Assembly (NCBI RefSeq): GCF_036697365.1
Contig: NZ_JBAHZA010000002.1
Location: 390,549 to 454,548 of the forward strand
Direction of reading: 5' to 3'
DNA length: 64,000 nucleotides
Origin: Psychromonas arctica
Lineage (GTDB): Bacteria; Pseudomonadota; Gammaproteobacteria; Enterobacterales; Psychromonadaceae
Shown: piece by piece, positions 38,857-60,879 of the stretch
How positions within the stretch are numbered: the stretch's first letter is position 1
Layout of the letters: each line of letters begins with the position of its first letter
Translations under genes and position numbers: made by a program
Notes under the pieces: model-generated
The model's input: only the letters and a program-made list of their open reading frames with translations
Told to the model about the DNA's origin: nothing
Database searches by the model: none

Positions 38857-39492
38857 GTGGAACACTTCCTCATTAACATAACAAGCTACCCAACTGTTAT
38901 CTACACAACATTATTATTAATAATATTATTATTCTGGCTACTAACAGTGGTTGGTTTATTCGACATGGATATTTTAGATGTTGATATCGACTTAGACACC
39001 TCTGAAGTCGGTGGCGCACTAGGGGTGCTTGTTACATTAGGGTTAACAGGAGTACCTGTCACTTTAGTACTTAGCATACTTATTTTATATAGCTGGACAC
39101 TTTGTTCAATATTGTCACTATTTATTGGTCACTTCGATTGGGATTATGGCGTATTAACTTTCCTTTTAAATACTTTTATTTTGATCGCTACTGGTGCCCT
39201 TTCTATCCCACTTACCGCTAAAACAATTAACCCACTTAGACCACTATTTCGAGCTTTTAATCAAGGCCCTATACAAGAAACCTTAATGGGTAAAGAAGCA
39301 CGAGTACGCACTACAAAAATTGACGAAAATTCAGGTCAGATTGAATGTTCTCGTGATGGAGCTAGTTTAATACTCAACGCAAGATCAGGTAGCGCAAAAC
39401 AATATTTATACGGTGAAACAGTAATCATCATCGACTTTAAAGAAATTGACAACATGTACATTGTCGTTAGTAAACAAGAATTCAATCAATAA
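38857..39492 (+). CDS. YqiJ/NfeD-like inner-membrane protein (DUF1449, C-terminal OB-fold)
   Basis: 211 aa. Three or four TM helices, then a soluble C-terminal beta-rich domain. It sits immediately upstream of a flotillin gene, matching the E. coli yqiJ-yqiK arrangement. Confidence 0.6.
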   Translation: MEHFLINITSYPTVIYTTLLLIILLFWLLTVVGLFDMDILDVDIDLDTSEVGGALGVLVTLGLTGVPVTLVLSILILYSWTLCSILSLFIGHFDWDYGVLTFLLNTFILIATGALSIPLTAKTINPLRPLFRAFNQGPIQETLMGKEARVRTTKIDENSGQIECSRDGASLILNARSGSAKQYLYGETVIIIDFKEIDNMYIVVSKQEFNQ

Positions 39493-39507
39493 TACGGAGC
39501 TCAAACC

Positions 39508-41565
39508 ATGGATACTAGTATCTTAATAACAATAGGGACTGCGGTCCTTGCTGTCATTGCCATTATTACTTTATTGGCAATGACATTTAGTGCCTTTTAT
39601 AAAAAAATCAGCCAAGGTCATGCGATGATCGTGAATGACATGTCTTCTAAACCAAAGGTACATTTTACAGGTGGCATGGTCTTACCGGTTGTACACAAGA
39701 TGGAAATAATGAAAATTTCATTAATTACACTTGAAATCGACCGTCGTGGTAGCGATGGATTAATTTGTAAAGACAACTTACGTGCTGATATTACTGTTGC
39801 CTTTTACTTACGTGTAAATGAAACACGTGATGATGTATTGAAAGTAGCAAAAGCCATAGGTGTTGATCGAGCATCTGACAAAGATGCTGTTAACGAGTTA
39901 TTTAATGCTAAATTTTCTGAAGCATTAAAAACTGCCGGCAAAGGGATGGACTTCCTTGAGCTTTTTGAAAATCGTATGGGCTTTCGTGAAAAGATTGTCA
40001 CTGTTGTAGGTAATGATCTTAACGGTTATGTATTAGAAGATGTGGCAATTGATTACTTAGAGCAAACACCAAAATCTAGTTTAGATCCAAACAACATTTT
40101 AGACTCTGAAGGTATTCGTAAAATTACCGAAAAAACCGCAGTACAAAATATTGAAACTAACCGTTTAGAAAAAGATGAATCTCTTTCTATTACCAAAAAG
40201 AACGTAGAAACACGTGAAGCAATGTTAGCGTTAGAGCGTCAAGAAGTTGATGCAGAATCTAAACAGAAACGTGAGATAGAAACAGTAAAAGCACGTGAAG
40301 AAGCTGAAACACATAAAATTCAACAGGAAGAACGCAGCAAGTCAGAACAAGCTCAACTAGAAGCCGATGAACAAATTGCCATTCGAGACCAAGTAAAATT
40401 ACGTCAAGTTGAGATCGCAGAACAAAGTAGAGAACGTGCTGTTATTATCGAAAAAGAAAAAGTCATTCGCGCACAAGAAATGGAAATTGTGAATCGTAAA
40501 CGCGAAGTTGAATTATCAGAAATTGATAAAGAAAAAGCACTGGAAGAAGAGCGTAAAATTATTGCTCAAACAATCAGTGAAAGAATTGCAGTAGATCGTA
40601 AAGTAGCTGAAGAAGAAGAAAGAATTAAAGAAGTACAAGAAGTCTCTGAAGCTGATCGTCTAAAACAAATTACTATCATAGAAGCAGAAGCTAAAGCACA
40701 AGAAGAATTACTTCGTGTTGTCAAACAAGCTGAGGCAGATGAACAAAAAGCTGAACATAAATCTCGTGAAATTAACTTAATGGCACAAGCTAACCTTGAA
40801 GTAGCGTCTAAAGAAGCTGAATCAATTAAGAAACTAGCCGAAGGTACTCAAGCAGAACAAGCAGCGAATGGTTTAGCTGACGCAAAAGTATTAATAGCAA
40901 AAGCTGATGCAACTGAAAAAGAAGGATTAGCAAAAGTTCGAGTAGAGGAAGCGCAAGCCAAAGCAACAGAAATGACAGGTCTTGCAGAAGCTAAAGTACT
41001 TGAAGAAAAACTAACAGCTGAAGCTCGTGGTAATGAAGGATTGGGTAAAGCAGAGGCTGTTGCCAAACGTGAAGTTGGTCTGAGTGAAGCAGAAGTCTTA
41101 ACTGAAAAAGGCAGAGCAGAAGCGGTATCTAAACGTGAGATTGGTGTTAGTGAAGCAGACATTATTCGCGAGAAAGGTAAAGCTGAAGCAGATGGTCTAA
41201 TTGAAAAATTCGCTGCAATGAACAACATGAGTAAAGAAAGCAGAGAGTTTGAAGAATTCCGTATGAACCTTGAAATAGAATTCAAACAAACATTAGCTAA
41301 TATCGAAGCTAACAAAGAGATTTCAAGCGATCAAGCAAGCGTATTAGGTGCCGCACTGAAACATGCGAATATCGATATTGTAGGTGGTCAAGGTGAATAC
41401 TTTGACAAGCTGTATAAAGGTTTAGGAGCAGGTAATGCAATTAACGGTTTCTTAGAAAAGAGCCCTGTTATCCAAAGCTTGATGGAGAAATTATTGGCGG
41501 GTACCTCAAATGAAAAAGAGATAAACCAACCAATCGTAGAAACAACGAAGACACCTGAGGTTTAA
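39508..41565 (+). CDS. flotillin family protein (SPFH/Band-7, YqiK/FloT-like) with extended C-terminal EA-repeat coiled coil
   Basis: N-terminal TM helix followed by an SPFH domain (MIVNDMSSKPKVHFTGGMVLPVVHKMEIMKISLITLEIDR...). It has a long Glu/Ala/Lys-rich heptad region and tandem ~20-aa repeats (GLAEAKVLEEKLTAEA / VGLSEAEVLTEKGRAEA / IGVSEADIIREKGKAEA). Confidence 0.85.
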   Translation: MDTSILITIGTAVLAVIAIITLLAMTFSAFYKKISQGHAMIVNDMSSKPKVHFTGGMVLPVVHKMEIMKISLITLEIDRRGSDGLICKDNLRADITVAFYLRVNETRDDVLKVAKAIGVDRASDKDAVNELFNAKFSEALKTAGKGMDFLELFENRMGFREKIVTVVGNDLNGYVLEDVAIDYLEQTPKSSLDPNNILDSEGIRKITEKTAVQNIETNRLEKDESLSITKKNVETREAMLALERQEVDAESKQKREIETVKAREEAETHKIQQEERSKSEQAQLEADEQIAIRDQVKLRQVEIAEQSRERAVIIEKEKVIRAQEMEIVNRKREVELSEIDKEKALEEERKIIAQTISERIAVDRKVAEEEERIKEVQEVSEADRLKQITIIEAEAKAQEELLRVVKQAEADEQKAEHKSREINLMAQANLEVASKEAESIKKLAEGTQAEQAANGLADAKVLIAKADATEKEGLAKVRVEEAQAKATEMTGLAEAKVLEEKLTAEARGNEGLGKAEAVAKREVGLSEAEVLTEKGRAEAVSKREIGVSEADIIREKGKAEADGLIEKFAAMNNMSKESREFEEFRMNLEIEFKQTLANIEANKEISSDQASVLGAALKHANIDIVGGQGEYFDKLYKGLGAGNAINGFLEKSPVIQSLMEKLLAGTSNEKEINQPIVETTKTPEV

Positions 41566-41723
41566 TTAACCTCTTCCTACTCAGTACTTAATCGTTTAAT
41601 AAGGAATGTTCATATTCAACCAACCTGATTAAACGATTACCTGAGTAGCGATTCATTTAATATATTTACATATAGTCAGAGCCCTGCTCTGACTTGTCAA
41701 TTAAAGCTGTTTAGGAAGTAATT

Positions 41724-44700
41724 GTGACTGATAAATCAATGATAGTAGAACAAGCCGTCGCACAAGGTGGCGCTTATGAAATCATTCGTAAACGTCTTGA
41801 AGATCAAGGCAACCAACTAGATAGCTTAACTCAACAACTCAACTTAGATAGACAAAAAGAATTCGGCACTACTGAAATGAAAGTGTTGGGTCGTACTCGT
41901 ATTCGAACAGAACATAATTGCCAAGCAACAGACTTGGTTATCGTTGGTGATTATGTTCTATTTGGTTATAATGTTTTTCTAGGTTTAAAAAAACAAACAG
42001 TACTAAGTGATGTACTCTCACTATTTCAATTAGAGCAAGTCGAACAGCAATATGAACTGAAGCAAGTTGACTTAGATAGCTCATTTCTCTCAGACCCTCG
42101 ATTTATTACTGAATTCCAAGAAGTATATGCATACTACAAAGATGCTACCCTTTCTCAATTAGTATTGAGAAACAATAAACTGTTAGCGGCCTTCAAGATT
42201 GGTGAAAAACTAACAGATATTCGAGTATTTCGCTGGCAAGTAAATGGTAATGATATCGAGTACATCGATAATCGTGGTGAACGAGATTTAAAATTACCTG
42301 ATACACACGACTTTCAATGGAATCGCTGTGGTCGTGAAGATATTATCGATGGGCGTAACCCACATGTTAATGTCCTTGATACCCTTTTTATTGACAGTTT
42401 ACGTGGTGATATCACCATAAAAGTTGAAGATAATACTAATGTGGGACAAGGTATTTACAGCGAACCAGTACAAGAAAGTAATCAGTCAATTAACGATGCT
42501 GAATTTTATTATGCAGATCTTGATCCCATTATTTTATTGAAAATAAGACCTTATCAAGAAGAAAATTATCGATACCTCCTTTTCAATAAAAAAAACCAAG
42601 ATATAAAACGAGTTGATGCTATTGGTGACTCTTGCCAGCAACTCCCGGAGAATCACGGTATTATTTTCCCTGGTGGTTATTACCTTACGACAGGTGAACT
42701 TAAAACTTTTGAGGATGATTTAGAAGGACTAGTTTTTAATAGCAGCATGAAATCACCTAATGGTGAAGATGTGTTATTCGTATTCTATCAACCACATACA
42801 AATATCGTGGCGTTATACCCATATAATTTAATCAATAAGTCATTACAAAATCCAATATTCGGGCATGGTTATGGTTTCTATGAAGATGGCCGTATGATCA
42901 TCTTTTATGCAGAACAAGAAGCAAGCCGTATTCATCCTGTGCAAATTTGGCAAACCGCTTATTACTCAGATGTTTTTGCTAGCCAACAAATTCAGTCCCC
43001 TACCTTCTTCGGGAAAATTGGTAACACCGATCTGGTTCGTGGTATTTCAGAGTTATATACCATCTCAAAGAGTATTCACCAAGAAGCCAGCTCTGCTAAT
43101 CATTACAATGATTTAATCAAACATTGTGCCACTATTTTTGATGCTTATTACTGGTTAGACAGCAAAGAACTTGAGCCAATTCGCAACCTGCTTTATACCG
43201 TAAAAGAAACTTCAGAAGCCGTGATTGATGAATATGAAAAAGTAGAAAGTATTCGTAAACAATCAGACAAAGCATTAAGTGAAGCAAACAAAAAACAAGT
43301 AGAAATATTACGTCAGATTCAGCCTGGTAGTTGGCGTTCACCACAGGAATTTGTGGATGGCTTGAATACCATCTCAGCACAACAAGGACATTTATTAACG
43401 ATTAGAGAATATCGTTATATTGATGTAGAAGCGATTGATGAATTGAACCAAAAGCTGACTAAAACCAGTGAAGAACTGAATCAAAGAACGGTTGAATTTT
43501 TATCGTCTGATGATGCGTTGAAAAGTTATTACAGCGACCTTGAACAGATTATATCAAGCAGTGAAAAGGCCCAATCAACTGCAGAACTATCACCTCAAAT
43601 AGACGCATTGAACGATATTTCACAAGGGTTGGATCTCATTAGTCAGATCATGGCTTCATTAAAAGTATCCGATGCCACCATGCAAACACAAATTGTTGAT
43701 GCAGTCTCTACACTTTACAGCAAAATTAATCAGCAAAAAGCTCAGCTCAGCCACCAGCAAAAGAGTTTTGGTAGCCACGAAGCACAAGCTCAGTTTTCAG
43801 CTAGATTAAAACTATTAAATCAAACTATTCATAACGCATTAAGTCTTTCAACATCACCCGATAAATGTGATGAGCAATCAGCAAGGTTAATGGTACAAGT
43901 TGAAGAGTTAGAAAGTGAATTCAGCGAATATGATCAATTCATTGGCGATATTGTCACAAAGCGTGATGAAATATTTGAATCTTTTGAAACACATCGTCAA
44001 TCGCTTATTGAAACAAGACAACGCAAAGCACAATCACTAGAAGATGCTGCAAAACGTATTTTATCTTCTGTGACTAAACGTATTAATCGTTTTACTGAAG
44101 CCAGTGAAATGAATACTTTTTTTGCTGCTGATAGTTTAATCAATAAAATTCGCGATATTATTGAGCAACTGAACCAGCTTGATAGCTCAGTTAAAGCCGA
44201 AGATGTTGATGCAAAACTCAAAGCTATTAAAGCACAAGCACTCCGTTCTTTACGTGATAAAAGTGACTTATTTGAGGAAGGCGGCAATGTCATCAAGTTA
44301 GGCCCGCGCCACAAATTCTCAGTCAATAAACAAGCCTTAGATTTAAGCCTTTTAGCAAAAGATGAACAAATGTATGTTCGGCTTACCGGTACTGATTATG
44401 AACAAGTGATACAAAACGCTAAATTAGATGACTTAAAACCTTATTGGAACATACATTATCCATCTGAAACAAATTTACTATATCGTAGTGAGTTCTTAGC
44501 TTATTCGGTTTTACAAGCAGCGATTAATCAAACTGATGGCTTAACCTGGCAATCACTTAGCGCTGTAGTGGGAAGCCAAGATTTACTCTCTAAATTAGTC
44601 AGTGAATTTGCGAGTACGCGTTATAAAGAAGGCTATGAAAAAGGCATACATGATTTTGATGCCACATTAATATTAACCAAATTATTCCCAGCTTATGAAA

Positions 44701-46628
44701 CCGCAGGGGTATTTGTTCACAGCCCATTTGCGAGAGGGTTAGCGTGTATTTTTTGGGCGAATACTCAAACAGAAAAGCCTCAAACACTTTGGCATCAAGC
44801 GTGTAAAAACGCCGCTCAAATGCAACGTCTTTTTGGTCAGTTAACCGCTAAAACGACAATCATTAATGAAATTCAACAATCATTAAGCGCTTTTCTCGTA
44901 AAACATCAGTTTGCTGTGCCAACACAAATCATTTCACGTGCAAGTGAATACTTAAGTGAAGAGCTTGCAAAAGATCAAGTTAACTTTGACACCAGTAAGT
45001 ATGCACGTCGTTTGTGTGATGATTTTACAACATATTTAAATACACATGATGTATGGCAAGACTACTTAAAATTATTGAACGAATTACAAGGCGAAACGGG
45101 TAAACGTTGGCAATTAACAGAAAGTTGGTTAACAGCATTTGTTGAGTCACAAGGTAAAACAGACTTATATGAATTTATCGGTGAAGCCATTGGTATCCTT
45201 AATGCAGAAAAACGTATCGACAGAAATGACCGTGAAGTTGATATTCAGTTTACCATTACAGGATTGCTAGGTAATCATCCGCTTATTAAAGAACAAGCAT
45301 TAACCATTCAACTGCCTGATTTTCTGGATCGTAACAATCATTTCCATCAACAAGTGCTACCAAAATACTTAGATTACTTAAGTACGCGCCAACAGGTTAT
45401 GGATGAACAAAAGTCACTACTTCGTTTAGAAGAGTTTAAAGCAAAACCACTTTCATCATTTGTACGTAACCGTCTAATTTCAGATTCTTATTTACCGTTA
45501 ATTGGTGATAACCTCGCCAAACAAATGGGCACAGTAGGGAGCAGTAAGCGTACGGACTTGATGGGATTATTATTAATGATTTCACCGCCTGGTTACGGTA
45601 AAACCACCTTGATGGAGTATGTCGCAGATCGTCTTGGCTTGATATTCATGAAAATTAACTGCCCTGTTATTGGCCATTCAGTGACATCCGTTGATCCAAA
45701 TGGCACAACCGACAGCGCAGCAAAACAAGAACTAGAAAAGCTCAATCTAGCTTTAGAAATGGGCAGTAATGTGATGTTATATCTAGATGATATTCAACAT
45801 ACCAACTCAGAATTCTTACAAAAGTTCATTTCGCTTTGTGATGGCACAAGAAAAATTGAAGGCGTTTGGCAAGGTAAAACCAAAACCTATGACATGCGCG
45901 GTAAAAAGTTCTGTGTTGTGATGGCCGGCAACCCCTACACTGAAACTGGTGAGACATTCCAAATTCCAGATATGTTAGCCAACCGAGCAGATATTTATAA
46001 TCTAGGTGATGTATTAAGCGGTAAAGAAGAGGTGTTTAATCTAAGTTATATTGAAAACGCCCTATCTTCCAATGCAATATTAGCACCTTTAGCCAGTCGT
46101 TCGATGGATGATGTGTATAAATTTGTTGATATGGCAGAGGGTAAAAATGTGGCGAGTACTGACTTTAGTCACCAATATAGTGCTGCTGAAAGTAAAGAGA
46201 TAGTCACCGTATTGCAAAAGCTACAACAAATACAGAGCGTGGTTGCTATCGTCAATAAACAATACATTCAGTCAAGCGCACAAGATCCTAAATACCGTAC
46301 AGAGCCTCCATTCAAGTTACAGGGTTCATATCGTAATATGAATAAAATGGCTGAGAAGATCTCTGCCATTATGACCGATAAAGAATTGGCCGACTTGGTT
46401 GATGACCATTACCAAGGTGAATCGCAGTTATTAACAACAGGCACTGAAGCGAATCTGTTAAAACTAGCTGAATTACGTGGATTATTAACCTCAGAAGATA
46501 ATAAACGTTGGGCCTCTATAAAAGCTGACTTCAAACGTAATTTAGCAATGGGTGGCGATGAAACAGATAGCGGACAACAAATTGTCGGTCAATTGAATGA
46601 CATTGTTAATGCGATTAACAATAAATAA
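41724..46628 (+). CDS. 1634-aa multidomain protein with C-terminal MoxR/AAA_5-type AAA+ ATPase module; function unknown
   Basis: Walker A LLMISPPGYGKTTL, Walker B VMLYLDDIQH, sensor-1 CVVMAGNP, Arg-finger region LANRADIYNL. The N-terminal ~480 aa is beta-rich. The centre (~aa 480-1000) is predicted long alpha-helical/coiled coil. The gene is co-oriented with the flotillin operon, 158 bp downstream of it. Confidence 0.6.
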   Translation: MTDKSMIVEQAVAQGGAYEIIRKRLEDQGNQLDSLTQQLNLDRQKEFGTTEMKVLGRTRIRTEHNCQATDLVIVGDYVLFGYNVFLGLKKQTVLSDVLSLFQLEQVEQQYELKQVDLDSSFLSDPRFITEFQEVYAYYKDATLSQLVLRNNKLLAAFKIGEKLTDIRVFRWQVNGNDIEYIDNRGERDLKLPDTHDFQWNRCGREDIIDGRNPHVNVLDTLFIDSLRGDITIKVEDNTNVGQGIYSEPVQESNQSINDAEFYYADLDPIILLKIRPYQEENYRYLLFNKKNQDIKRVDAIGDSCQQLPENHGIIFPGGYYLTTGELKTFEDDLEGLVFNSSMKSPNGEDVLFVFYQPHTNIVALYPYNLINKSLQNPIFGHGYGFYEDGRMIIFYAEQEASRIHPVQIWQTAYYSDVFASQQIQSPTFFGKIGNTDLVRGISELYTISKSIHQEASSANHYNDLIKHCATIFDAYYWLDSKELEPIRNLLYTVKETSEAVIDEYEKVESIRKQSDKALSEANKKQVEILRQIQPGSWRSPQEFVDGLNTISAQQGHLLTIREYRYIDVEAIDELNQKLTKTSEELNQRTVEFLSSDDALKSYYSDLEQIISSSEKAQSTAELSPQIDALNDISQGLDLISQIMASLKVSDATMQTQIVDAVSTLYSKINQQKAQLSHQQKSFGSHEAQAQFSARLKLLNQTIHNALSLSTSPDKCDEQSARLMVQVEELESEFSEYDQFIGDIVTKRDEIFESFETHRQSLIETRQRKAQSLEDAAKRILSSVTKRINRFTEASEMNTFFAADSLINKIRDIIEQLNQLDSSVKAEDVDAKLKAIKAQALRSLRDKSDLFEEGGNVIKLGPRHKFSVNKQALDLSLLAKDEQMYVRLTGTDYEQVIQNAKLDDLKPYWNIHYPSETNLLYRSEFLAYSVLQAAINQTDGLTWQSLSAVVGSQDLLSKLVSEFASTRYKEGYEKGIHDFDATLILTKLFPAYETAGVFVHSPFARGLACIFWANTQTEKPQTLWHQACKNAAQMQRLFGQLTAKTTIINEIQQSLSAFLVKHQFAVPTQIISRASEYLSEELAKDQVNFDTSKYARRLCDDFTTYLNTHDVWQDYLKLLNELQGETGKRWQLTESWLTAFVESQGKTDLYEFIGEAIGILNAEKRIDRNDREVDIQFTITGLLGNHPLIKEQALTIQLPDFLDRNNHFHQQVLPKYLDYLSTRQQVMDEQKSLLRLEEFKAKPLSSFVRNRLISDSYLPLIGDNLAKQMGTVGSSKRTDLMGLLLMISPPGYGKTTLMEYVADRLGLIFMKINCPVIGHSVTSVDPNGTTDSAAKQELEKLNLALEMGSNVMLYLDDIQHTNSEFLQKFISLCDGTRKIEGVWQGKTKTYDMRGKKFCVVMAGNPYTETGETFQIPDMLANRADIYNLGDVLSGKEEVFNLSYIENALSSNAILAPLASRSMDDVYKFVDMAEGKNVASTDFSHQYSAAESKEIVTVLQKLQQIQSVVAIVNKQYIQSSAQDPKYRTEPPFKLQGSYRNMNKMAEKISAIMTDKELADLVDDHYQGESQLLTTGTEANLLKLAELRGLLTSEDNKRWASIKADFKRNLAMGGDETDSGQQIVGQLNDIVNAINNK

Positions 46629-47488: not shown

Positions 47489-47739
47489 GATCAGAATCGC
47501 CAGAATAAAATGAATTATAAATTTTCCATAAATGCTTAAAACAGTGAAAAATACTGAAGTAATATAATTTAATAAACACAGTCATCAATAATAATTAAAA
47601 TTAATTTATAGTGAACACGATCAGAAAGTAACAAATAAATCATAATAACCATTTATTGTTTGCTAATGAATATTACGCGCTTATCCCAAGTAACACTTAA
47701 TGATATGATTACACAACAAAAAATACCAAGGTACAAGCG

Positions 47740-48855
47740 ATGACAAACACTGATGAGATTATTGAAATTGAAAACCAAGATGAGCTAAATTTAGCTGTTC
47801 GTCCTGTTTATATGGAAAATGACATCAACGTTCGTATTGCAAAAGAACAATCGAGCGTATTTGAACTACTTCGCCGTGAAAAACGCGGTGATCTTATCTT
47901 AGCCCCTGACTTTCAAAGAAACGATGTTTGGGATTTAAAACATAAATCAGAGTTAATCGAGTCCATTCTAATGGGATTTCCGATCCCTTTAATTTATCTT
48001 TTTGAAAATGAAAACGGTATTAGACAAGTAGTCGATGGTAAGCAGCGAATTAGCGCCCTAAAAGCGTTTCTCAATAATGAATTCGCCCTCACAACACTAT
48101 CAATGTTGCCAGACCTAAAAGGTAAAACCTTTGATGATATACGCCCTCTTTCACAAGCAAAGCTAGAAGATTACCAATTACATACTTATGTGATTCAACC
48201 TCCCACTCCGGAGTTTGTAAAATTTAATATTTTTGAGCGTGTTAATCGAAGTGGTATCAGCATTAATAAACAAGAGATGCGACACGCCTTGTATCAAGGT
48301 AAAGCGACTGATTTACTGCAAGTACTAGCAGAAAGCACCGCATTCAAGCTGTGCACTGATAATGGGGTAAAACCAGATCGAATGCGTGACCGCTATTTAC
48401 TATTACGTTTTATCGCTTTTTATCTATTAAAGGCAGAACAAACACCTACAACCAATATTGAATACAAGTCAGATATTGACTCTTTTCTCGCCGCTACAAT
48501 GGCATATTTAAACGAGAAAGCATCTGATGAATTAATTCAACATATTACACAAACTTGTTTGCAAGGTATGCACAATATTTACCAAATAATAGGCGATCAG
48601 GCTTTTCGTTTTGATAGCAAAGCCTCGGCACATAAACGCCCTATCAATATCGGATTATTCGAAATGTTAGTCTTTGCATTTGGCCATATAGAGCTCGATA
48701 AAGTGAACATAGAAAAGGCTAAAAATCTCATTAAAGAGAAAAAAGCTTATCTCGATGAGCAAGGTATTTTTGGTGGTAGCATCGATACTATTGAACATGT
48801 AACAATGCGGTTTAACACTGCTCTAGAAATAACGGAAGGATTAACCAATGCTTAA
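47740..48855 (+). CDS. DUF262 domain protein (ParB/Srx-like, GmrSD N-terminal nuclease/NTPase fold)
   Basis: Motifs DFQRNDVW and the DGQQR-type VDGKQRISAL, plus the hydrophobic pattern (ILMGFPIPLIY) characteristic of DUF262. Confidence 0.8.
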   Translation: MTNTDEIIEIENQDELNLAVRPVYMENDINVRIAKEQSSVFELLRREKRGDLILAPDFQRNDVWDLKHKSELIESILMGFPIPLIYLFENENGIRQVVDGKQRISALKAFLNNEFALTTLSMLPDLKGKTFDDIRPLSQAKLEDYQLHTYVIQPPTPEFVKFNIFERVNRSGISINKQEMRHALYQGKATDLLQVLAESTAFKLCTDNGVKPDRMRDRYLLLRFIAFYLLKAEQTPTTNIEYKSDIDSFLAATMAYLNEKASDELIQHITQTCLQGMHNIYQIIGDQAFRFDSKASAHKRPINIGLFEMLVFAFGHIELDKVNIEKAKNLIKEKKAYLDEQGIFGGSIDTIEHVTMRFNTALEITEGLTNA

Positions 48856-49897
48856 GCAACTCGATATTACTAACTTAAAAAGTATTAGTAAAACATCATT
48901 AAAACTTGCTCCTTTAACCATTCTAGCAGGGGCAAATTCCGCAGGTAAGTCCACGGTGATGCAATCACTGATGTTATTAATTAAACATAGCGGATCAAGC
49001 AATCGCTTTAGTATGGAAGAACTATTACGTTACATGAACGATTTCTCAGCTATCCGCAATAAGAGAAACAATGCCAGATCATTAAATATCACCGCCATCG
49101 ATCATCAAGATAAATCCCATCAGATCAACATTAATGCAGATGGCGTAGAAGCTGATAGTCAATTACAGTACATTTATGAGCCGCCAACAAAAATCGCTGA
49201 ACAAGAGCTGCTTTACCTAAATGCAAACCGTATTGGCGCACAAGAATTAGTACCCGTAGCAGATCGTAAAATAGGCTTATTAGGAGAATTTGTTTTTCCT
49301 ACTTTTGATAAAGTGAAAGGTAATATTTTACCCGATGAACTGTTAAAGTTTGAAGGTTCTAAAACCATTTCATACCAACTTAGTCAATGGTTAGCGTTTA
49401 TCACAGGTACTTCGTTAGAACTGCAAACAGAAAAAACAAGCGATCAAGTTAAAGTGTCTTTCAACGTAAAAGATATAGACAGTCAAGTATCCCCTTACAA
49501 TTTGGGTGCTGGCATGAGTGATGTAGCCAAGGTACTCATTGTGTGTTTAATGGCTAAAAAAGGCGATTTAATTTTAATTGAAAATCCAGAAGTACAACTT
49601 CACCCTAAAGCACAAGCCCTATTAGGTGTATTCCTCGCGTTTATCGCCAGTTCAGGCATTCAACTCATTATTGAAACACACTGTGAGCACTTAATTAATA
49701 AAGTAGCTTATCAAGTGTATGAAGATGAAATAGAGAGTGGAGATGTTGTCATCCATTACAAAGGACATGTAGAAGAAGACTTTCAAGCAATCACTATTGA
49801 CCTGAATGGTGAGTTCAACGATCTAGAAGGTAACATTATTAGCTTCCCTGCAGGCTTCTTCGATGTCACCTTGACTGACTTGATGGACATGAGGTAA
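48848..49897 (+). CDS. ABC-like AAA_21/AAA_15 family ATPase with DUF3696-type C-terminus
   Basis: Walker A LTILAGANSAGKST. Walker B/D-loop DLILIENPEVQLHP. H-loop IIETHCEHLI. Its start overlaps the upstream gene by 8 nt. Confidence 0.8.
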   Translation: MLKQLDITNLKSISKTSLKLAPLTILAGANSAGKSTVMQSLMLLIKHSGSSNRFSMEELLRYMNDFSAIRNKRNNARSLNITAIDHQDKSHQININADGVEADSQLQYIYEPPTKIAEQELLYLNANRIGAQELVPVADRKIGLLGEFVFPTFDKVKGNILPDELLKFEGSKTISYQLSQWLAFITGTSLELQTEKTSDQVKVSFNVKDIDSQVSPYNLGAGMSDVAKVLIVCLMAKKGDLILIENPEVQLHPKAQALLGVFLAFIASSGIQLIIETHCEHLINKVAYQVYEDEIESGDVVIHYKGHVEEDFQAITIDLNGEFNDLEGNIISFPAGFFDVTLTDLMDMR

Positions 49898-49904
49898 TTC
49901 GATA

Positions 49905-50654
49905 ATGGCTGAAAAAATGGTTCTCAGCACCTCTTTATTGATTGCCTATGAAAACATGGCGTTTGATGCTCGTCAGTATCAAAAAAAGTATAAGCGTTTA
50001 ATGAAAACCTTATCTTTACCCTATAAAACCAATAAAAGGCAGTTAATTGAGGCAAAAAGCCAAGGGCTTAACGACGTTACTTACAATCGGTTAATGCCTC
50101 AGTTACAGCATCAATCTAATAGAGATGATTCGCTTGAAATGTTGGCAATGAACACCAGTTTAAAAATCATTCTAACGGAAGATAAAGCCGCTAAATTGCC
50201 CTATGTATTTTATCGCTCATCGTTTCTTAGTAATGAATTATCAATTAGTTTGAAAGCAGATGATAGCCGTACTGATTTGGTTAAATACCTACAAATACTG
50301 TGTGCGAGCGCGACTAAAATCACCATTTGTGATAACTACTTTGCACAAGGCTGGGACAACACTCAAAGTTTATTCAGGTTCATATTACCCCGCCATAAAC
50401 TTCAAATAGAATATGTCGAAACCCCACGAGTCATTACAGTGACAAAGAATAGTGCAAAAATGAGTGAACGATTCATGCATAGCATTTGTAAAGAGTGGTC
50501 TATCTGTGAAAGCACAAAATATAAAGGTTCTCACGATCGCTATCTTCTGATTGAATCCCCTCAAGGCAACATTGAAGTAATGCTTTCAAGTGGGTTTGAT
50601 CATATTTGGAAGAGTCGTCCCAAAGAGATTACTTGTGTTATTCGAGAAGCCTAG
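49905..50654 (+). CDS. hypothetical protein, third gene of DUF262-ATPase operon
   Basis: 249 aa with no motif I can recognise. It starts 7 nt after the ATPase gene stop. Confidence 0.5.
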   Translation: MAEKMVLSTSLLIAYENMAFDARQYQKKYKRLMKTLSLPYKTNKRQLIEAKSQGLNDVTYNRLMPQLQHQSNRDDSLEMLAMNTSLKIILTEDKAAKLPYVFYRSSFLSNELSISLKADDSRTDLVKYLQILCASATKITICDNYFAQGWDNTQSLFRFILPRHKLQIEYVETPRVITVTKNSAKMSERFMHSICKEWSICESTKYKGSHDRYLLIESPQGNIEVMLSSGFDHIWKSRPKEITCVIREA

Positions 50655-51322
50655 CCGTTGTTTAACAAACTTATTAATGGTGGGCTTTCTAAGTTTATTA
50701 TTAAACTTGATAAAAATAATCGTAATATAAAAGTTTATTTCAATGTCTTCTGCCAATATCAGTAACCATTGCTATCAATTTACTGACCGTTCATAATTTT
50801 AAAGCTTATAAAGGGCTTAAATTTTTAAGATCCTATAAAGAAAATATTATTAATTTTTCGCATTAAATATCGCACAACCATTCTCCTTAATTGATTACTT
50901 AAGACGATAATATTAAAAATATCCCCTCGTCATTTCTCATCTAAAAATTTACAACTACATCACTATAAAGTGATATTTATTGGCAAGATATAAGCACTAT
51001 TCTTTTACTATTTTTATTAAATGAAACTATTAAATCAATCAACTGTCAGTATCCATAGGACATAACAATCATAAAATGACAGTGTTCATTATTAACTCTC
51101 ATTTTAGCTTCAGTATATTTTAATTAAATAAATTTGATTTTTTATCAATACGCTAATGCAAGTTTGATAGCATTTAATTGTTATTTAGAGTTCGATTACA
51201 CATTAAAAGATCATTATAAATTAGCTTAAATTTTTCAAAAAAATGTAAGAGATAACTAAAACAGCACCCTACTTTAACGATTGGTCAGTTTATTTTAAAT
51301 CATCACTAGAGAGTTTAATTAT

Positions 51323-57019: not shown

Positions 57020-58438
57020 ATGGTTGATTTTAGCCGACTAGCTTATGTTGATCTTGAAACAACAGGAACCAAACCAACACGAGATCAAATAACAGAAATT
57101 GCTATCGTACAAACCCTCAACGGAGTCATAGTTGATAGGTGGCAATCGCTAATTTACCCAGATACAAACATCCCCTTAATGATTCAGAAGTTAACGGGAA
57201 TAACTCCTGAGATGGTGGCAGACGCCCCAACTATCGATCAAGTTATTCCTACTGTTATTGAAAAGCTTAAAGGACATGTTGTCGTTGCACATAATGCACG
57301 ATTTGACGTGGGCTTTTTAAAAAATGCCTTTAAACAAAACAATGTAGAATTTAAATATCCAGTCGTGTGCACCGTTAAACTCTCACGAGAACTATACCCA
57401 AGTTTCAAAAGACATAACCTTGATAGCATCATTAAACGCTTTGATCTAACCTGTGAAGCGAGACATAGAGCAATGGACGATGCGGCTATTTTACCGCAGA
57501 TAGTTGCACGTATGACGGGTGAATTTGATGAAGCCAAAGTCATGAAAGCTATGCAATCTCAACAAAAGCTATCTAGTGTTCCGCCCCATATAAACCCTGA
57601 TATTTTCTCAACTATGCCCAATGAACCCGGAGTTTATTTGTTCTACGGCGAAACAGGTAATTTATTATATGTTGGTAAAAGCGTACAAATCAGAGCGAGA
57701 GTCATTTCACATTTTTCTAGCGATCATAGTCATGATAGAGAAATGCGTATGGCTCAACAAGTATATGATATTGAATGGATAACCACAGCGGGTGAATTTA
57801 GTGCGTTAGTTTTAGAATCCGAATTAGTTAAGTCACGCGCCCCTTTATTCAATAGGCAGCTTAGAAAACAAAAATCTCTATTTACAATCTATTGGGAAAA
57901 CAGTACGAATGAGAATGTTGCTCAACCAAGTGTGATTGATATTAATACTTTAAATACACAATCGAAAAAAGCATCACTACGTAACACCTACGGACTTTAT
58001 AAAAACCGCCGAACCGCACTTGAAGCCCTACGTAAATTAAAAGATGAAAATCAACTATGCGGAATACAATTAGGTTTAGATAAAGGAAAAGGCCCTTGTT
58101 TTTCCTATCAACTTAAAAAATGTAAAGGTATTTGCTGTGGCCAAGAGTCGAACATCAGTTACCAAATGCGAATGCAACAAGCATTTTCACCGATAAAAAT
58201 TAAAGGTTGGCCCTACTCAGGTGCAATTGGCATTAAAGAGTACAATGAAACAAGCGATATAAGCTGTATTCATATTATTTCGCATTGGTTATATTTAGGG
58301 AAAGTGAATAATGAAAGTGAACTAGCAGACTTTAATTTTAATGTGACCGCCAAACTGGATATAGACTTTTACAAGATATGTATTTCTCAGTTACAAAAGA
58401 GCCCTGCGTTGATTAATTTAGAAGATATTATTTCATAA
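57020..58438 (+). CDS. DnaQ-like 3'-5' exonuclease domain fused to GIY-YIG nuclease domain (Cho/UvrC-N-like)
   Basis: DEDDh motifs (YVDLETTG; VVAHNARFDVGFL; the H of RHRAMDDA), followed by GIY-YIG (GVYLFYGETGNLLYVGKSVQIRARVISHF). The C-terminus is Cys-rich (CFSYQLKKCKGICC). Confidence 0.8.
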   Translation: MVDFSRLAYVDLETTGTKPTRDQITEIAIVQTLNGVIVDRWQSLIYPDTNIPLMIQKLTGITPEMVADAPTIDQVIPTVIEKLKGHVVVAHNARFDVGFLKNAFKQNNVEFKYPVVCTVKLSRELYPSFKRHNLDSIIKRFDLTCEARHRAMDDAAILPQIVARMTGEFDEAKVMKAMQSQQKLSSVPPHINPDIFSTMPNEPGVYLFYGETGNLLYVGKSVQIRARVISHFSSDHSHDREMRMAQQVYDIEWITTAGEFSALVLESELVKSRAPLFNRQLRKQKSLFTIYWENSTNENVAQPSVIDINTLNTQSKKASLRNTYGLYKNRRTALEALRKLKDENQLCGIQLGLDKGKGPCFSYQLKKCKGICCGQESNISYQMRMQQAFSPIKIKGWPYSGAIGIKEYNETSDISCIHIISHWLYLGKVNNESELADFNFNVTAKLDIDFYKICISQLQKSPALINLEDIIS

Positions 58439-59019: not shown

Positions 59020-59757
59020 TTATTTTTTTAACTCATAAATATCAGTTTGAGCCTTATTAACTTGGTCTTTGGATATGTTTTTTACCACTTTTTTGGTAAA
59101 ACTAGGTGTTTGAATATAATAGCTAATTTCACCTTCGTGTTCAGTCTCATATTGAACCTGTAAAATGTTAGTACCTTTGATTAAGTTTAAATCTGTAAGT
59201 CCACCTGAGCCTCCAAAATACATTAAGCTTTCATCGTTTAAGGTAGCTTGAAAAGAACTCATTCTTTCAGAGTAAATAAAAGCAGCATCTTTATTGCCTA
59301 AAGTAATTTGTTCTTTTTCTGGCCTTTCTTTTGTGTAATTCAAGTAAAACTTTGACGTTATAACACCTGATTCTTTTTCACTTGAAACATAATAGAAAGG
59401 AATATATTCCGTTGAGCTTGTTAAACCAAAGCTAAATTTTCTAGGTGGAGAAAAGTTTGCCCTTTTTCTATCAAACTTTAATTCAATGGTATTCTCGCCC
59501 TCTTTTAATACAAAGGCTAATATGTCTTGAACAAAAGGAGGCATATCTTGAAATTGATTTTTAAGTGGATTTTCTTCATTAAAAATTTTTAGACCTGAAA
59601 CAGCTCCTTTACCTACAGGTTTTCCATTAATTTTGAGTTGTACGTCGTAATTACTATTATGACCGGAAACGAACGCTTTAATATTTTGACTAGCCTTGGA
59701 TGCCATACTTATAAAAAATATTGAAATTATAATTAATAAACTCGCTCTTTTGCTCAT
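59020..59757 (-). CDS. hypothetical secreted protein
   Basis: Signal peptide MSKRASLLIIISIFFISMASKA. 245 aa. Confidence 0.45.
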   Translation of the reverse strand: MSKRASLLIIISIFFISMASKASQNIKAFVSGHNSNYDVQLKINGKPVGKGAVSGLKIFNEENPLKNQFQDMPPFVQDILAFVLKEGENTIELKFDRKRANFSPPRKFSFGLTSSTEYIPFYYVSSEKESGVITSKFYLNYTKERPEKEQITLGNKDAAFIYSERMSSFQATLNDESLMYFGGSGGLTDLNLIKGTNILQVQYETEHEGEISYYIQTPSFTKKVVKNISKDQVNKAQTDIYELKK

Positions 59758-59963
59758 ATTTGCTTCTTCTTTTTAATTGTTATGTTTATATTTTTTGCTG
59801 AAAACATCGATAAAGCCTTGAACTTCAATTACTATTTGCAACATATATTGTTCACATTATGCTCAATCGACTCACGGTTAAAAGTAATAACACACTCAAC
59901 ATTATTTATTAACTTACAAAATAGTACATCCATTAAAATTTTATGGCTGTCTACGATCTTTCG

Positions 59964-60461
59964 CTAGACCTTAATTATACTAGGGTACCTGAGCAAGCCA
60001 AATGAAACTTTACAAGCTTGAATTATCTCTTCTTGCCTTTTTTCTTTAGACCAACCATTAATATGCTCACAATACCATTCGTCTTCATAAATTGTATATT
60101 CTGAAAACGACTCAGGGTAACCTAAAAATACATTAGCATCATAAATCTTGGAGGCTCCGTCTTCGGGAGGAAGCATTCCTCGGATAACTTCATGGGCTAA
60201 AATTTTAACATAACCCTCGACAGCCTCTTCAAGCTTAGGAAACTTTAGATCTAACTCAGAGATCACAATATTAAAGTGCTCATCTACTTCAAATTCATTT
60301 AGTGGATTTAATAAAGAGGCCAAAATACAAAGGTTTTCGGTTTCGACGCCTTGCTCAAGTAAACTCATAGCCCAATTGACTTTAAGTTTACTTCCACCGA
60401 CTGTCATTGCAATCAAACCGAAAGCTTTAATTGTTTCTAATTCTTGCGTAGAAGTCAGCAT
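59964..60461 (-). CDS. hypothetical protein
   Basis: 165 aa ORF co-oriented with the islet genes. No recognisable motif. Confidence 0.4.
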   Translation of the reverse strand: MLTSTQELETIKAFGLIAMTVGGSKLKVNWAMSLLEQGVETENLCILASLLNPLNEFEVDEHFNIVISELDLKFPKLEEAVEGYVKILAHEVIRGMLPPEDGASKIYDANVFLGYPESFSEYTIYEDEWYCEHINGWSKEKRQEEIIQACKVSFGLLRYPSIIKV

Positions 60462-60549
60462 ACTATCCCAGATACAATAAAATAGCTTTTTAAAATCAGC
60501 GACCTGCGAGCAATAACCAACTGCCCTGCTTAAATAACTTATTATACAT

Positions 60550-60879
60550 TTATTCTACCAACTCAATAACTTTGATAGTTGGTCTAGAATCTCCGAGCCA
60601 AAATTTAGTACCAGTAAATAGTTTTATTGAACTATGAGACTTACTATTAAAAGAAATCTCAAAGTCTCCATGTATTGTTAATTCACTTTTGTTACCAATA
60701 GCCACTCCACCAGCGATTCTTAAGTCTGATGTGCAAACTTTATAGTCAGCAGGCTCGATTGATTTCAAAATCCAAGATTTACCTTGTGGGACCTCATAAT
60801 CATTAGACTTCTCCAAAGTCAATTCATTAGCAAAAATTGGCAAAGAGAAGAATAAAAAGACGAAACTTAAGATTTTCAT
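60550..60879 (-). CDS. hypothetical small secreted protein
   Basis: Signal peptide MKILSFVFLFFSLPIFA. 109 aa. Preceded by copy 1 of the repeat element. Confidence 0.45.
   Translation of the reverse strand: MKILSFVFLFFSLPIFANELTLEKSNDYEVPQGKSWILKSIEPADYKVCTSDLRIAGGVAIGNKSELTIHGDFEISFNSKSHSSIKLFTGTKFWLGDSRPTIKVIELVE

What the first reader, a model, noticed from the sequence alone, without database searches (positions are those of the whole stretch)
47740..50654. Compact DUF262 - ABC-like ATPase (AAA_21/DUF3696) - unknown three-gene operon: candidate anti-phage defence module
Seen in the sequence: three co-oriented genes are translationally coupled. The first two overlap by 8 nt and the third starts 7 nt after the second. 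Gene 1 has the DUF262 DGQQR-type motifs (DFQRNDVW, VDGKQRISAL) of ParB-like/GmrSD-N nuclease-NTPase domains. Gene 2 has Walker A, Walker B/D-loop and H-loop motifs of the OLD/AAA_21 clade with a DUF3696-like tail. Gene 3 (249 aa) has no recognisable domain. From established knowledge: DUF262 proteins and AAA_15/21 ATPases are recurrent components of defence islands, for example GmrSD, BrxU, and described ATPase plus DUF262 systems such as Menshen-type NsnB/NsnC. Here the gene order differs (nuclease first) and the third partner looks unrelated, so this may be an undescribed variant. The operon is bracketed by AT-rich non-coding stretches (47489-47739 and the 668-bp 50655-51322) and lies between housekeeping loci (the flotillin operon and opgGHD), consistent with an inserted islet.
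Basis: partly seen in the sequence, partly recalled or inferred. Interest (0 to 1): 0.8.

Follow-up and report, generated by a model that had tools for sequence, protein, structure and literature searches.

The report
Known Menshen anti-phage defence operon
The three coupled genes are an ordinary, intact copy of the already described Menshen (NsnA-NsnB-NsnC) anti-phage system, in its usual gene order and carrying a phospholipase-D-like effector that has already been catalogued, so this is not a new variant.

Summary
The three ORFs, their 8-nt overlap and 7-nt gap, and the cited motifs are all real.

**Identity.** Each protein matches a PADLOC Menshen model almost end to end: NsnA 4.7e-105, NsnB 8.6e-80, NsnC 2.2e-87. 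The canonical Menshen order is NsnA (DUF262), then NsnB (ABC ATPase), then NsnC (PMC12065111).

**Defence reading.** It is supported by relatives. The same triad sits beside hsdRMS in Salmonella and E. coli (1 of 5,426 complete E. coli genomes). It also sits in an integrase island in Vibrio and in a plasmid defence island in Klebsiella.

**Islet claim.** It could not be shown at this locus: GC is host-like and there are no repeats, integrase or tRNA.

The mechanism remains inferred. Verdict: already known, low interest.

The parts
47489..47739 (+). 251-bp AT-rich (GC 0.255) upstream intergenic region; presumed promoter and 5' leader of the operon
   Evidence: It is the gap between the divergent 123-aa ORF and nsnA; GC. 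Sigma-70-like hexamers are present, but no more than in shuffled sequence, so the promoter position is not established.
47740..48855 (+). nsnA: 371-aa ParB-like DUF262 NTPase plus C-terminal ParBDB-type region. It has no extra N-terminal sensor domain, so this is Type I Menshen. Predicted sensor.
   Evidence: PADLOC NsnA 4.7e-105, residues 27-369 against model positions 40-383 of 385. Pfam GmrSD_N 1.3e-24 and no DUF1524. It is 58-67% identical to NsnA in five other genera and 91% to a metagenomic relative.
47860..48294 (+). DUF262/GmrSD_N domain of NsnA, carrying motif I QRNDVW (47914-47931), motif II DGKQR (48034-48048) and motif III FERVN (48232-48246)
   Evidence: Pfam match to residues 41-185. 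Motif positions. All three motifs are identical in seven aligned homologues. Motif definitions come from PMC12065111.
48848..49897 (+). nsnB: 349-aa ABC-type (OLD/AAA_15-21) ATPase with a short C-terminal helical tail. Predicted transducer that holds and regulates NsnC.
   Evidence: PADLOC NsnB 8.6e-80, residues 1-347 against model positions 1-341 of 345. AAA_15 2.6e-21 and AAA_21 2e-18. Motifs: Walker A GANSAGKS (48929-48952), R-containing Q-loop NANRIGAQ (49220-49243), GxG LGAGMS (49502-49519), Walker B with EN instead of DE, LILIEN (49568-49585), and His motif ETHCEH (49673-49690). These are the Menshen-specific substitutions described in PMC12065111. The DUF3696 tail (49733-49888) is sub-threshold at E = 0.16.
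49905..50654 (+). nsnC: 249-aa two-domain predicted effector
   Evidence: PADLOC NsnC (PDLC03880) 2.2e-87, full length. 87 homologue clusters were found, mostly from Gammaproteobacteria. AlphaFold2 model with pLDDT 93.5 and pTM 0.89.
49905..50264 (+). NsnC N-terminal PIN-like alpha/beta domain lacking the PIN acidic quartet (the 'inPIN' type); approximate boundary at residue 120
50265..50651 (+). NsnC C-terminal phospholipase-D-superfamily domain (PB-PLD1 / MIT_C-like), with invariant CDNY (50328-50339), HDRY (50532-50543), SGF (within 50586-50597) and K240 (within 50619-50636)

Best explanation
The locus is an intact Type I Menshen anti-phage system (nsnA-nsnB-nsnC) of the subtype whose effector is an inactive-PIN domain fused to a phospholipase-D-like PB-PLD1 domain.

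**Shown here:** family membership of all three proteins, conservation of their nucleotide-binding and putative catalytic motifs, the translationally coupled A-B-C operon, and the accessory, defence-island-associated distribution of the same triad in other bacteria.

**Inferred mechanism**, following the published model for Menshen and solved analogues such as Gabija, Septu and PARIS:
1. NsnA uses its ParB-like DUF262 NTPase and the adjoining DNA-binding domain to recognise incoming phage DNA.
2. This signal changes the ATP-binding or hydrolysis state of an NsnB ABC-ATPase oligomer, which holds NsnC by its PIN-like N-terminal domain through the NsnB C-terminal tails.
3. NsnC is thereby released or activated.
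4. Its PLD-like site (H210/R212 with D143, E224, S229 and K240) cleaves phosphodiester bonds of nucleic acid, stopping phage replication either directly or by aborting the infected cell.

**My own added inference:** single-HKD PLD nucleases act as dimers with a composite active site. Control may therefore work by keeping NsnC monomers apart until activation.
For: - Full-length PADLOC matches: NsnA 4.7e-105, NsnB 8.6e-80, NsnC 2.2e-87. The next-best families are 50-70 orders of magnitude weaker.
- Pfam gives DUF262 and AAA_15/21.
- Order and coupling are A-B-C, as in canonical Menshen.
- NsnB carries the Menshen-specific substitutions: EN Walker B, GxG, and Arg in the Q-loop.
- D143 and H210-D211-R212 are invariant in 53 homologues.
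- Contexts of the same triad:
  - between hsdR and yjiA in the hsd/symE/GmrSD region of Salmonella and E. coli;
  - present in only 1 of 5,426 complete E. coli genomes;
  - in a two-integrase island beside smpB in Vibrio alginolyticus;
  - beside an ABC-three-component system and a retron/PtuA on a conjugative Klebsiella plasmid;
  - at a different locus in Psychromonas aquatilis.
- Deleting or mutating the DUF262 gene abolished Menshen defence in the validated system (PMC10952713).
Against: - No experiment exists for this locus. As far as the searched literature shows, none exists for any PB-PLD1-type Menshen either. The validated system, from Solibacillus silvestris, has a BECR RNase effector.
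- The closest structural match, MITD1 MIT_C, is from my own knowledge a membrane-binding domain with no demonstrated catalysis. Nuclease activity of PB-PLD1 is therefore a prediction.
- The motif is H-D-R rather than the canonical HxK.
- How NsnA signals to NsnB is unknown even in the published model.
- The local neighbourhood in this window contains no other recognised defence system.
- The operon shows no compositional sign of recent acquisition.
- The DUF3696 tail is below Pfam threshold.
Confidence: 0.9

Rival explanations
1. Same Menshen membership, but the effector is a restriction-like enzyme. Once licensed by NsnA and NsnB, NsnC's PLD domain cuts phage DNA directly, as in modification-dependent or ATP-dependent PLD restriction enzymes. 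This would replace the RNA degradation or abortive infection favoured in the published model.
Against: Most other NsnC effectors are RNases, and the N-terminal domain derives from an RNase fold, which led the authors to favour RNA targets. PLD nucleases such as Zucchini and Nuc also cut RNA. No substrate data exist.
Confidence: 0.3
2. Same Menshen membership, but the PB-PLD1 domain acts on membranes or phospholipids. It would bind or hydrolyse lipid and so kill the infected cell by membrane damage, rather than cutting nucleic acid.
Against: The compact single-domain hits closest in size are nucleases (NucT, Nuc, Zucchini). NsnC has no predicted membrane segment. Every other characterised Menshen effector class points to nucleic acid.
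Confidence: 0.1
3. It is not Menshen but a different DUF262-plus-ATPase system, such as PD-T4-2, a GmrSD/BrxU-type type IV restriction enzyme, a PARIS/Gabija-like system, or candidate PDC-M55.
For: Secondary PADLOC hits: gene 1 to PD-T4-2_A at 8.3e-31 and PDC-M55C at 2.1e-06; gene 2 to AriA at 9e-23, PDC-M55A at 2e-21 and GajA at about 1e-13.
Against: The Menshen models score 50-75 orders of magnitude better and cover the full lengths. There is no DUF1524/HNH domain. No AriB, GajB or PD-T4-2 partner is present, and gene 3 hits only NsnC.
Confidence: 0.02
4. It is a housekeeping or selfish non-defence module, for example a ParB/SMC-like chromosome-handling set or a toxin-antitoxin-like addiction cassette.
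For: The local flanks are housekeeping genes (opgGHD, a PHA-granule-region protein) and GC is host-like. Gene 2 has a weak SMC_N hit at 8.9e-05, below the cut-off.
Against: The distribution is patchy and horizontally scattered: 1 of 5,426 E. coli genomes, plasmids, integrase islands, and positions next to R-M systems. A family member has experimentally validated anti-phage activity.
Confidence: 0.03

Closest known systems
Menshen (NsnA-NsnB-NsnC), Type I, with inPIN + PB-PLD1 effector (Millman et al. 2022; Li et al. 2025, PMC12065111)
   Same: It has the same three proteins, order, coupling and domain architecture. It carries the NsnB-specific motif substitutions, the MIT_C/PLD-like effector with conserved Asp and HDR, and no extra N-terminal domain on NsnA.
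   Different: Nothing architectural differs. It is a new instance in a Psychromonas-like marine gammaproteobacterium. The nearest named homologues are 65-71% identical (Pseudoalteromonas, P. aquatilis) and metagenomic relatives are 91-98% identical. Which numbered inPIN family it belongs to could not be determined, because the paper's supplement is not held.
Experimentally validated Menshen of Solibacillus silvestris StLB046
   Same: It has the same NsnA (DUF262 + ParBDB) and NsnB (ABC ATPase + DUF3696) modules and the same A-B-C operon.
   Different: That system's NsnC is inPIN11 plus a BECR-fold RNase (PB-BECR1) with an H-R-H triad. Here the effector is a PLD-superfamily domain, so the substrate and outcome may differ.
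GmrSD / BrxU / SspE (DUF262-DUF1524 enzymes)
   Same: They share a DUF262 NTPase sensor with QRxxxW, DGxQR and FxxxN motifs, followed by a helical DNA-binding region.
   Different: They are single polypeptides with a fused DUF1524 HNH-type nuclease. Here there is no DUF1524, and the effector is a separate protein reached through an ABC ATPase.
PARIS (AriA/AriB), Septu (PtuA/PtuB), Gabija (GajA)
   Same: In each, an OLD-clade ABC ATPase holds or regulates a nuclease effector. NsnB hits AriA at 9e-23 and GajA at about 1e-13. The predicted NsnB4-NsnC2 assembly resembles these.
   Different: They have no DUF262 sensor protein, and their effectors are Toprim or HNH rather than PLD.
MITD1 MIT_C domain, and PLD-family nucleases (Nuc, NucT, Zucchini, BfiI, SauUSI)
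   Different: Sequence identity is only 5-16%. The motif here is HDR rather than the canonical HxK(x)4D. MIT_C is not a known enzyme (my own knowledge).

Membership tests
Menshen (NsnABC) | NsnA has a ParB-like DUF262 domain with QRxxxW, DGxQR and FxxxN motifs | tested here: met
   PF03235 at 1.3e-24. Motifs QRNDVW59, DGKQR99 and FERVN165 are conserved in 7 of 7 homologues.
Menshen (NsnABC) | NsnA has a C-terminal ParBDB helical domain and no fused DUF1524 nuclease | tested here: met
   The PADLOC NsnA model aligns through residue 369 of 371. Pfam finds only GmrSD_N. The fold of the C-terminal region itself was not modelled.
Menshen (NsnABC) | NsnB is an ABC/OLD-type ATPase with Walker A, Walker B 'EN', GxG in place of SGG, Arg in the Q-loop, and a His motif | tested here: met
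   PADLOC NsnB 8.6e-80, full length. GANSAGKS28, NANRIGAQ125, LGAGMS219, LILIEN241 and ETHCEH276 are conserved in 7 of 7 homologues.
Menshen (NsnABC) | NsnB has a C-terminal DUF3696 helical tail | tested here: inconclusive
   PF12476 gives E = 0.16 and 12.6 bits against a 22-bit cut-off, at residues 296-347 against model positions 2-51 of 52. The position is right and the NsnB HMM covers it, but the Pfam score is sub-threshold.
Menshen (NsnABC) | A third gene lies immediately downstream and encodes an N-terminal inactive PIN-like domain plus a C-terminal effector domain | tested here: met
Menshen (NsnABC) | Co-oriented, contiguous A-B-C operon | tested here: met
   8-nt overlap and 7-nt gap. 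The same layout is seen in Pseudoalteromonas, Vibrio, Salmonella, E. coli, Klebsiella and P. aquatilis.
Menshen (NsnABC) | Confers resistance to phage | not testable with these tools
   Only the S. silvestris system is cited as validated. Plaque assays are needed.
PB-PLD1 effector class of NsnC | PLD-superfamily fold closest to MIT_C, with a conserved Asp/Glu after strand 2 and an HDR motif before strand 5 | tested here: met
GmrSD / BrxU / SspE | DUF1524 (HNH-like) nuclease domain fused C-terminal to DUF262 | tested here: not met
   No DUF1524 hit in any of the three proteins at E <= 1. SspE scores only 0.011 in PADLOC.
PD-T4-2 | PD-T4-2_A with its own partner protein | tested here: not met
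   Gene 1 hits PD-T4-2_A at 8.3e-31, far below NsnA at 4.7e-105. Gene 3 hits NsnC only, and no PD-T4-2 partner model appears among the top 25 hits shown for gene 2.
PARIS / Gabija / Septu | ABC ATPase paired or fused with a Toprim (AriB, GajA C-terminus) or HNH (PtuB) nuclease | tested here: not met
   Only partial ATPase-domain hits: AriA 9e-23, GajA about 1e-13. There is no Toprim or HNH domain in the operon.

The most novel reading that the evidence does not exclude
The PB-PLD1 effector of this Menshen subtype may not be a nuclease. It could be a membrane- or lipid-directed PLD domain like its closest structural relative, MITD1 MIT_C. Alternatively, it could be a PLD phosphodiesterase that becomes active only when NsnB releases two NsnC monomers to form a composite active site. 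Either would give Menshen a killing mechanism different from the RNase model drawn from the validated system.
Probability: 0.12. Interest if true: 0.5.

Novelty: already known. Interest (0 to 1): 0.12.

Why it matters
Very little is new. A standard PADLOC run would label this locus Menshen, and its effector class (inPIN + PB-PLD1) is already in the 2025 catalogue of 1,997 Menshen systems.

Two modest points of value remain:
- It is an intact PLD-type Menshen from a cold-marine Psychromonas-like genome that could serve as a test case. No PLD-type Menshen appears to have been tested experimentally, and the top structural match (MIT_C) is not a proven enzyme.
- RefSeq still names these genes 'DUF262 domain-containing protein / AAA family ATPase / hypothetical protein'.

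Tried and rejected
1. **Empty site in relatives.**
   - An OpgG-anchored scan of species genomes found Psychromonas spp. at 74-84% OpgG identity. Only opgGH(D) is shared with the window. Everything upstream differs, so no clean presence/absence comparison is possible.
   - An exact look-up of the 123-aa neighbour found nothing.
   - A metagenome scan with that protein returned one 47%-identical hit on a 1.4-kb contig.
   - An exact look-up of NsnC found only a 1.2-kb contig.
2. **Islet boundaries.** Flanking direct and inverted repeats are short, AT-rich and 72-93% matched, so they are treated as chance. There are no tRNA genes in the window and no Rfam family (one hit at E = 0.55). Promoter and terminator matches do not exceed shuffled sequence.
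3. **Compositional anomaly.** There is none: 0.371 against 0.366.
4. **A defence island in the window itself.** Upstream neighbours have no PADLOC hits. Only two 'candidate' PDC models hit likely housekeeping genes: a radical-SAM protein and a DEDDh/GIY-YIG exonuclease.
5. **Phage carriage.** There is no tblastn hit in 50,697 phage records.
6. **Solved structures by sequence.** None for NsnA or NsnC, and only an OLD nuclease N-terminus for NsnB.
7. **Supplementary tables of Li et al.** These would have given the inPIN family number, but they are not held.
8. **The 'flotillin' label for the upstream 685-aa protein.** It has no Pfam or PDB sequence support.
Full report
**Observation.** The window holds three co-oriented ORFs at 47740-48855 (371 aa), 48848-49897 (349 aa) and 49905-50654 (249 aa). 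The first two overlap by 8 nt, and the third starts 7 nt after the second. Each start is preceded by a purine-rich Shine-Dalgarno-like element (sequence). The flanking non-coding stretches are real and AT-rich: GC is 0.255 for 47489-47739 and 0.247 for 50655-51322, against 0.366 for the window.
- The DUF3696 tail is below the Pfam threshold (E = 0.16).
- Gene 3 lacks a Pfam or NCBIfam domain but does have a PADLOC family.
- The upstream 'flotillin operon' label could not be verified.

**What it is.** Against PADLOC-DB, the three proteins match the three Menshen models nearly end to end:

| Gene | Model | E-value | Residues | Model positions |
|---|---|---|---|---|
| 1 | NsnA | 4.7e-105 | 27-369 | 40-383 of 385 |
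| 2 | NsnB | 8.6e-80 | 1-347 | 1-341 of 345 |
| 3 | NsnC (PDLC03880) | 2.2e-87 | 1-248 | 1-240 of 242 |

The runners-up are tens of orders of magnitude weaker: PD-T4-2_A at 8.3e-31 for gene 1, HEC-03B and AriA at about 1e-23 for gene 2, and none for gene 3. Pfam agrees on the first two genes (GmrSD_N/DUF262 at 1.3e-24; AAA_15 at 2.6e-21 and AAA_21 at 2e-18) and is silent on the third.

**Comparison with the published description of Menshen.** Li et al. 2025 (PMC12065111) describe the system as follows:
- NsnA is ParB-DUF262 plus a ParBDB DNA-binding domain.
- An NsnB ABC ATPase with a DUF3696 tail follows.
- 'Almost always a third gene' lies immediately downstream, encoding an inactive PIN-like N-terminal domain and a variable C-terminal effector.

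NsnA has no extra N-terminal domain, which makes this a Type I system. NsnB carries the peculiar substitutions the paper lists for Menshen ATPases: Walker B 'EN' instead of 'DE' (LILIEN241-246), GxG instead of SGG (LGAGMS), an Arg in the Q-loop (NANRIGAQ) and the His motif (ETHCEH). All are identical in seven aligned homologues.

**The third protein.** A homologue search found 87 clusters. The named ones are mostly Gammaproteobacteria: Pseudoalteromonas, Psychromonas, Photobacterium, Vibrio, Moritella, Salmonella, Klebsiella, E. coli, Yersinia and others.
- A 53-sequence alignment shows invariant C142-D143-x-Y145, H210-D211-R212-Y213, E224, S229-G230-F231 and K240.
- The AlphaFold2 model built on that alignment is confident (pLDDT 93.5, pTM 0.89).
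- These are almost the same hits and scores that Li et al. report for their PB-PLD1 effector class (MIT_C 11.4, NucT 8.9, Tdp1 8.7).
- Their diagnostic 'conserved Asp/Glu after strand 2 and HDR before strand 5' corresponds to D143 (after strand 138-142) and H210-D211-R212 (before strand 213-218).
- The N-terminal 120 residues have no invariant acidic residue and only two columns that are at least 80% acidic. That is consistent with an inactive PIN.

Gene 3 is thus a catalogued NsnC type, not an unrelated partner.

**Is it defence, and is it mobile?** The window itself gives little evidence.
- The neighbours are a DUF3686/AAA giant protein, a PHA-granule-region protein, a small 123-aa protein and opgGHD. 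None hits a defence model.
- There is no tRNA, integrase or convincing repeat, and GC is host-like.
- The long AT-rich spacer before opgG is not an islet scar. Psychromonas genomes without Menshen at that position also have 655-1057 bp AT-rich gaps upstream of opgG, with weak collinear similarity to the opgG-proximal 320 bp of the window's spacer.
- The two closest metagenomic relatives (NsnA/B/C 91/98/94% identical) have the same upstream neighbours. No empty site was found.

The family-level evidence is clear. The same triad occurs in the following places, with gene lengths of 371-375, 348-349 and 248-249 aa and an 8-nt A/B overlap in all but the E. coli and Klebsiella copies:
- between unrelated housekeeping genes in Pseudoalteromonas;
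- at a different locus in Psychromonas aquatilis;
- in an island with two integrases next to smpB in Vibrio alginolyticus;
- directly beside hsdR-hsdM-hsdS, symE and a GmrSD-type gene in Salmonella;
- at the same place (hsdR | nsnABC | yjiA-yjiX-btsT) in one of 5,426 complete E. coli genomes;
- next to an ABC-three-component system and a retron/PtuA on conjugative IncFIB/IncHI1B Klebsiella plasmids.

No copy was found in phage genomes.

**Mechanism.** Nothing functional is shown here. Following Li et al., and by analogy with GmrSD/SspE for DUF262 and with Gabija, Septu and PARIS for ABC-ATPase-held nucleases, the most likely sequence is:
1. NsnA senses phage DNA through its ParB-like NTPase and DNA-binding domains.
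2. This alters the ATP state of an NsnB oligomer whose C-terminal tails clamp the PIN-like domain of NsnC.
3. NsnC is released or activated.
4. Its PLD-like site hydrolyses phosphodiester bonds.

Whether the target is RNA (favoured by the authors for Menshen generally) or DNA is open. The structural similarity to PLD restriction enzymes makes DNA plausible. A lipid or membrane activity cannot be excluded, because the best structural match, MIT_C, is a membrane-binding domain (my own knowledge). Single-HKD PLD nucleases work as dimers, so control by keeping NsnC monomers apart is a reasonable inference, but it is untested. The validated Menshen (S. silvestris) has a different, BECR-type effector. 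Deleting or mutating its DUF262 gene abolished defence. No Menshen structure is in the PDB by sequence search.

**Verdict.** This is a canonical, intact Type I Menshen system with an inPIN + PB-PLD1 effector in a Psychromonas-like genome (OpgG is 84% identical to Psychromonas sp. GE-S-Ul-11). The defence interpretation is supported. The 'undescribed variant' claim is refuted. The 'inserted islet' claim is unproven at this locus. Novelty is 'already known' and interest is low.

Noticed in passing
window 38857-46628 (+): A three-gene operon lies upstream. The 211-aa protein looks like a membrane protein by eye. The 685-aa protein has an N-terminal hydrophobic stretch and a long Glu/Ala/Lys-rich coiled-coil-like region. 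Neither has a Pfam hit at E <= 0.1, and the 685-aa protein has no PDB sequence hit. The third gene encodes a 1634-aa protein with DUF3686 ('ATPase involved in DNA repair', 5.5e-184), DUF7902 and a C-terminal AAA domain. None of the three hits PADLOC.
   Followed up: partly
window 50655-51322; L004 8944-10000; L002 9346-10000: An unusually long, very AT-rich (GC 0.247) non-coding region lies upstream of opgG. It is a conserved feature of Psychromonas genomes whether or not Menshen is adjacent: the gaps are 655-1057 bp, with weak collinear similarity at window 51004-51075 and 51280-51322. It is possibly a long regulatory leader for opgGHD. No Rfam match.
   Followed up: partly
window 57020-58438 (+): A 472-aa fusion of a DEDDh (RNase_T) exonuclease and a GIY-YIG domain. 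It hits the PADLOC candidate model PDC-S48 (2.5e-39) and the Cas-associated DEDDh model. It may simply be a DnaQ/Cho-like repair protein.
   Followed up: no
window 33651-35249 (+): A B12-binding radical-SAM protein with DUF4080 hits the PADLOC candidate model PDC-M51A (2e-31). It is probably metabolic rather than defence-related.
   Followed up: no
window 59020-60879 (-): Three consecutive minus-strand ORFs (245, 165 and 109 aa) have no Pfam hit at E <= 0.1.
   Followed up: no
L088-L090 (Salmonella) and L096 (E. coli EC42405, NZ_CP043414.1 4371879-4374796): The same Menshen subtype sits between hsdR (EcoAI family) and yjiA in the hsd/symE/GmrSD 'immigration control' region. That is the slot E. 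coli K-12 uses for mrr (K-12 map from my own knowledge). It is present in only 1 of 5,426 complete E. coli genomes. RefSeq annotates the genes only as DUF262 protein, AAA ATPase and hypothetical protein.
   Followed up: yes
P0007 (Psychromonas aquatilis NsnC homologue): UniRef names this NsnC homologue 'WYL domain-containing protein'. Nothing in the Pfam scan or the structure model of the window's 69%-identical protein supports a WYL domain, so the name is probably an annotation error.
   Followed up: no
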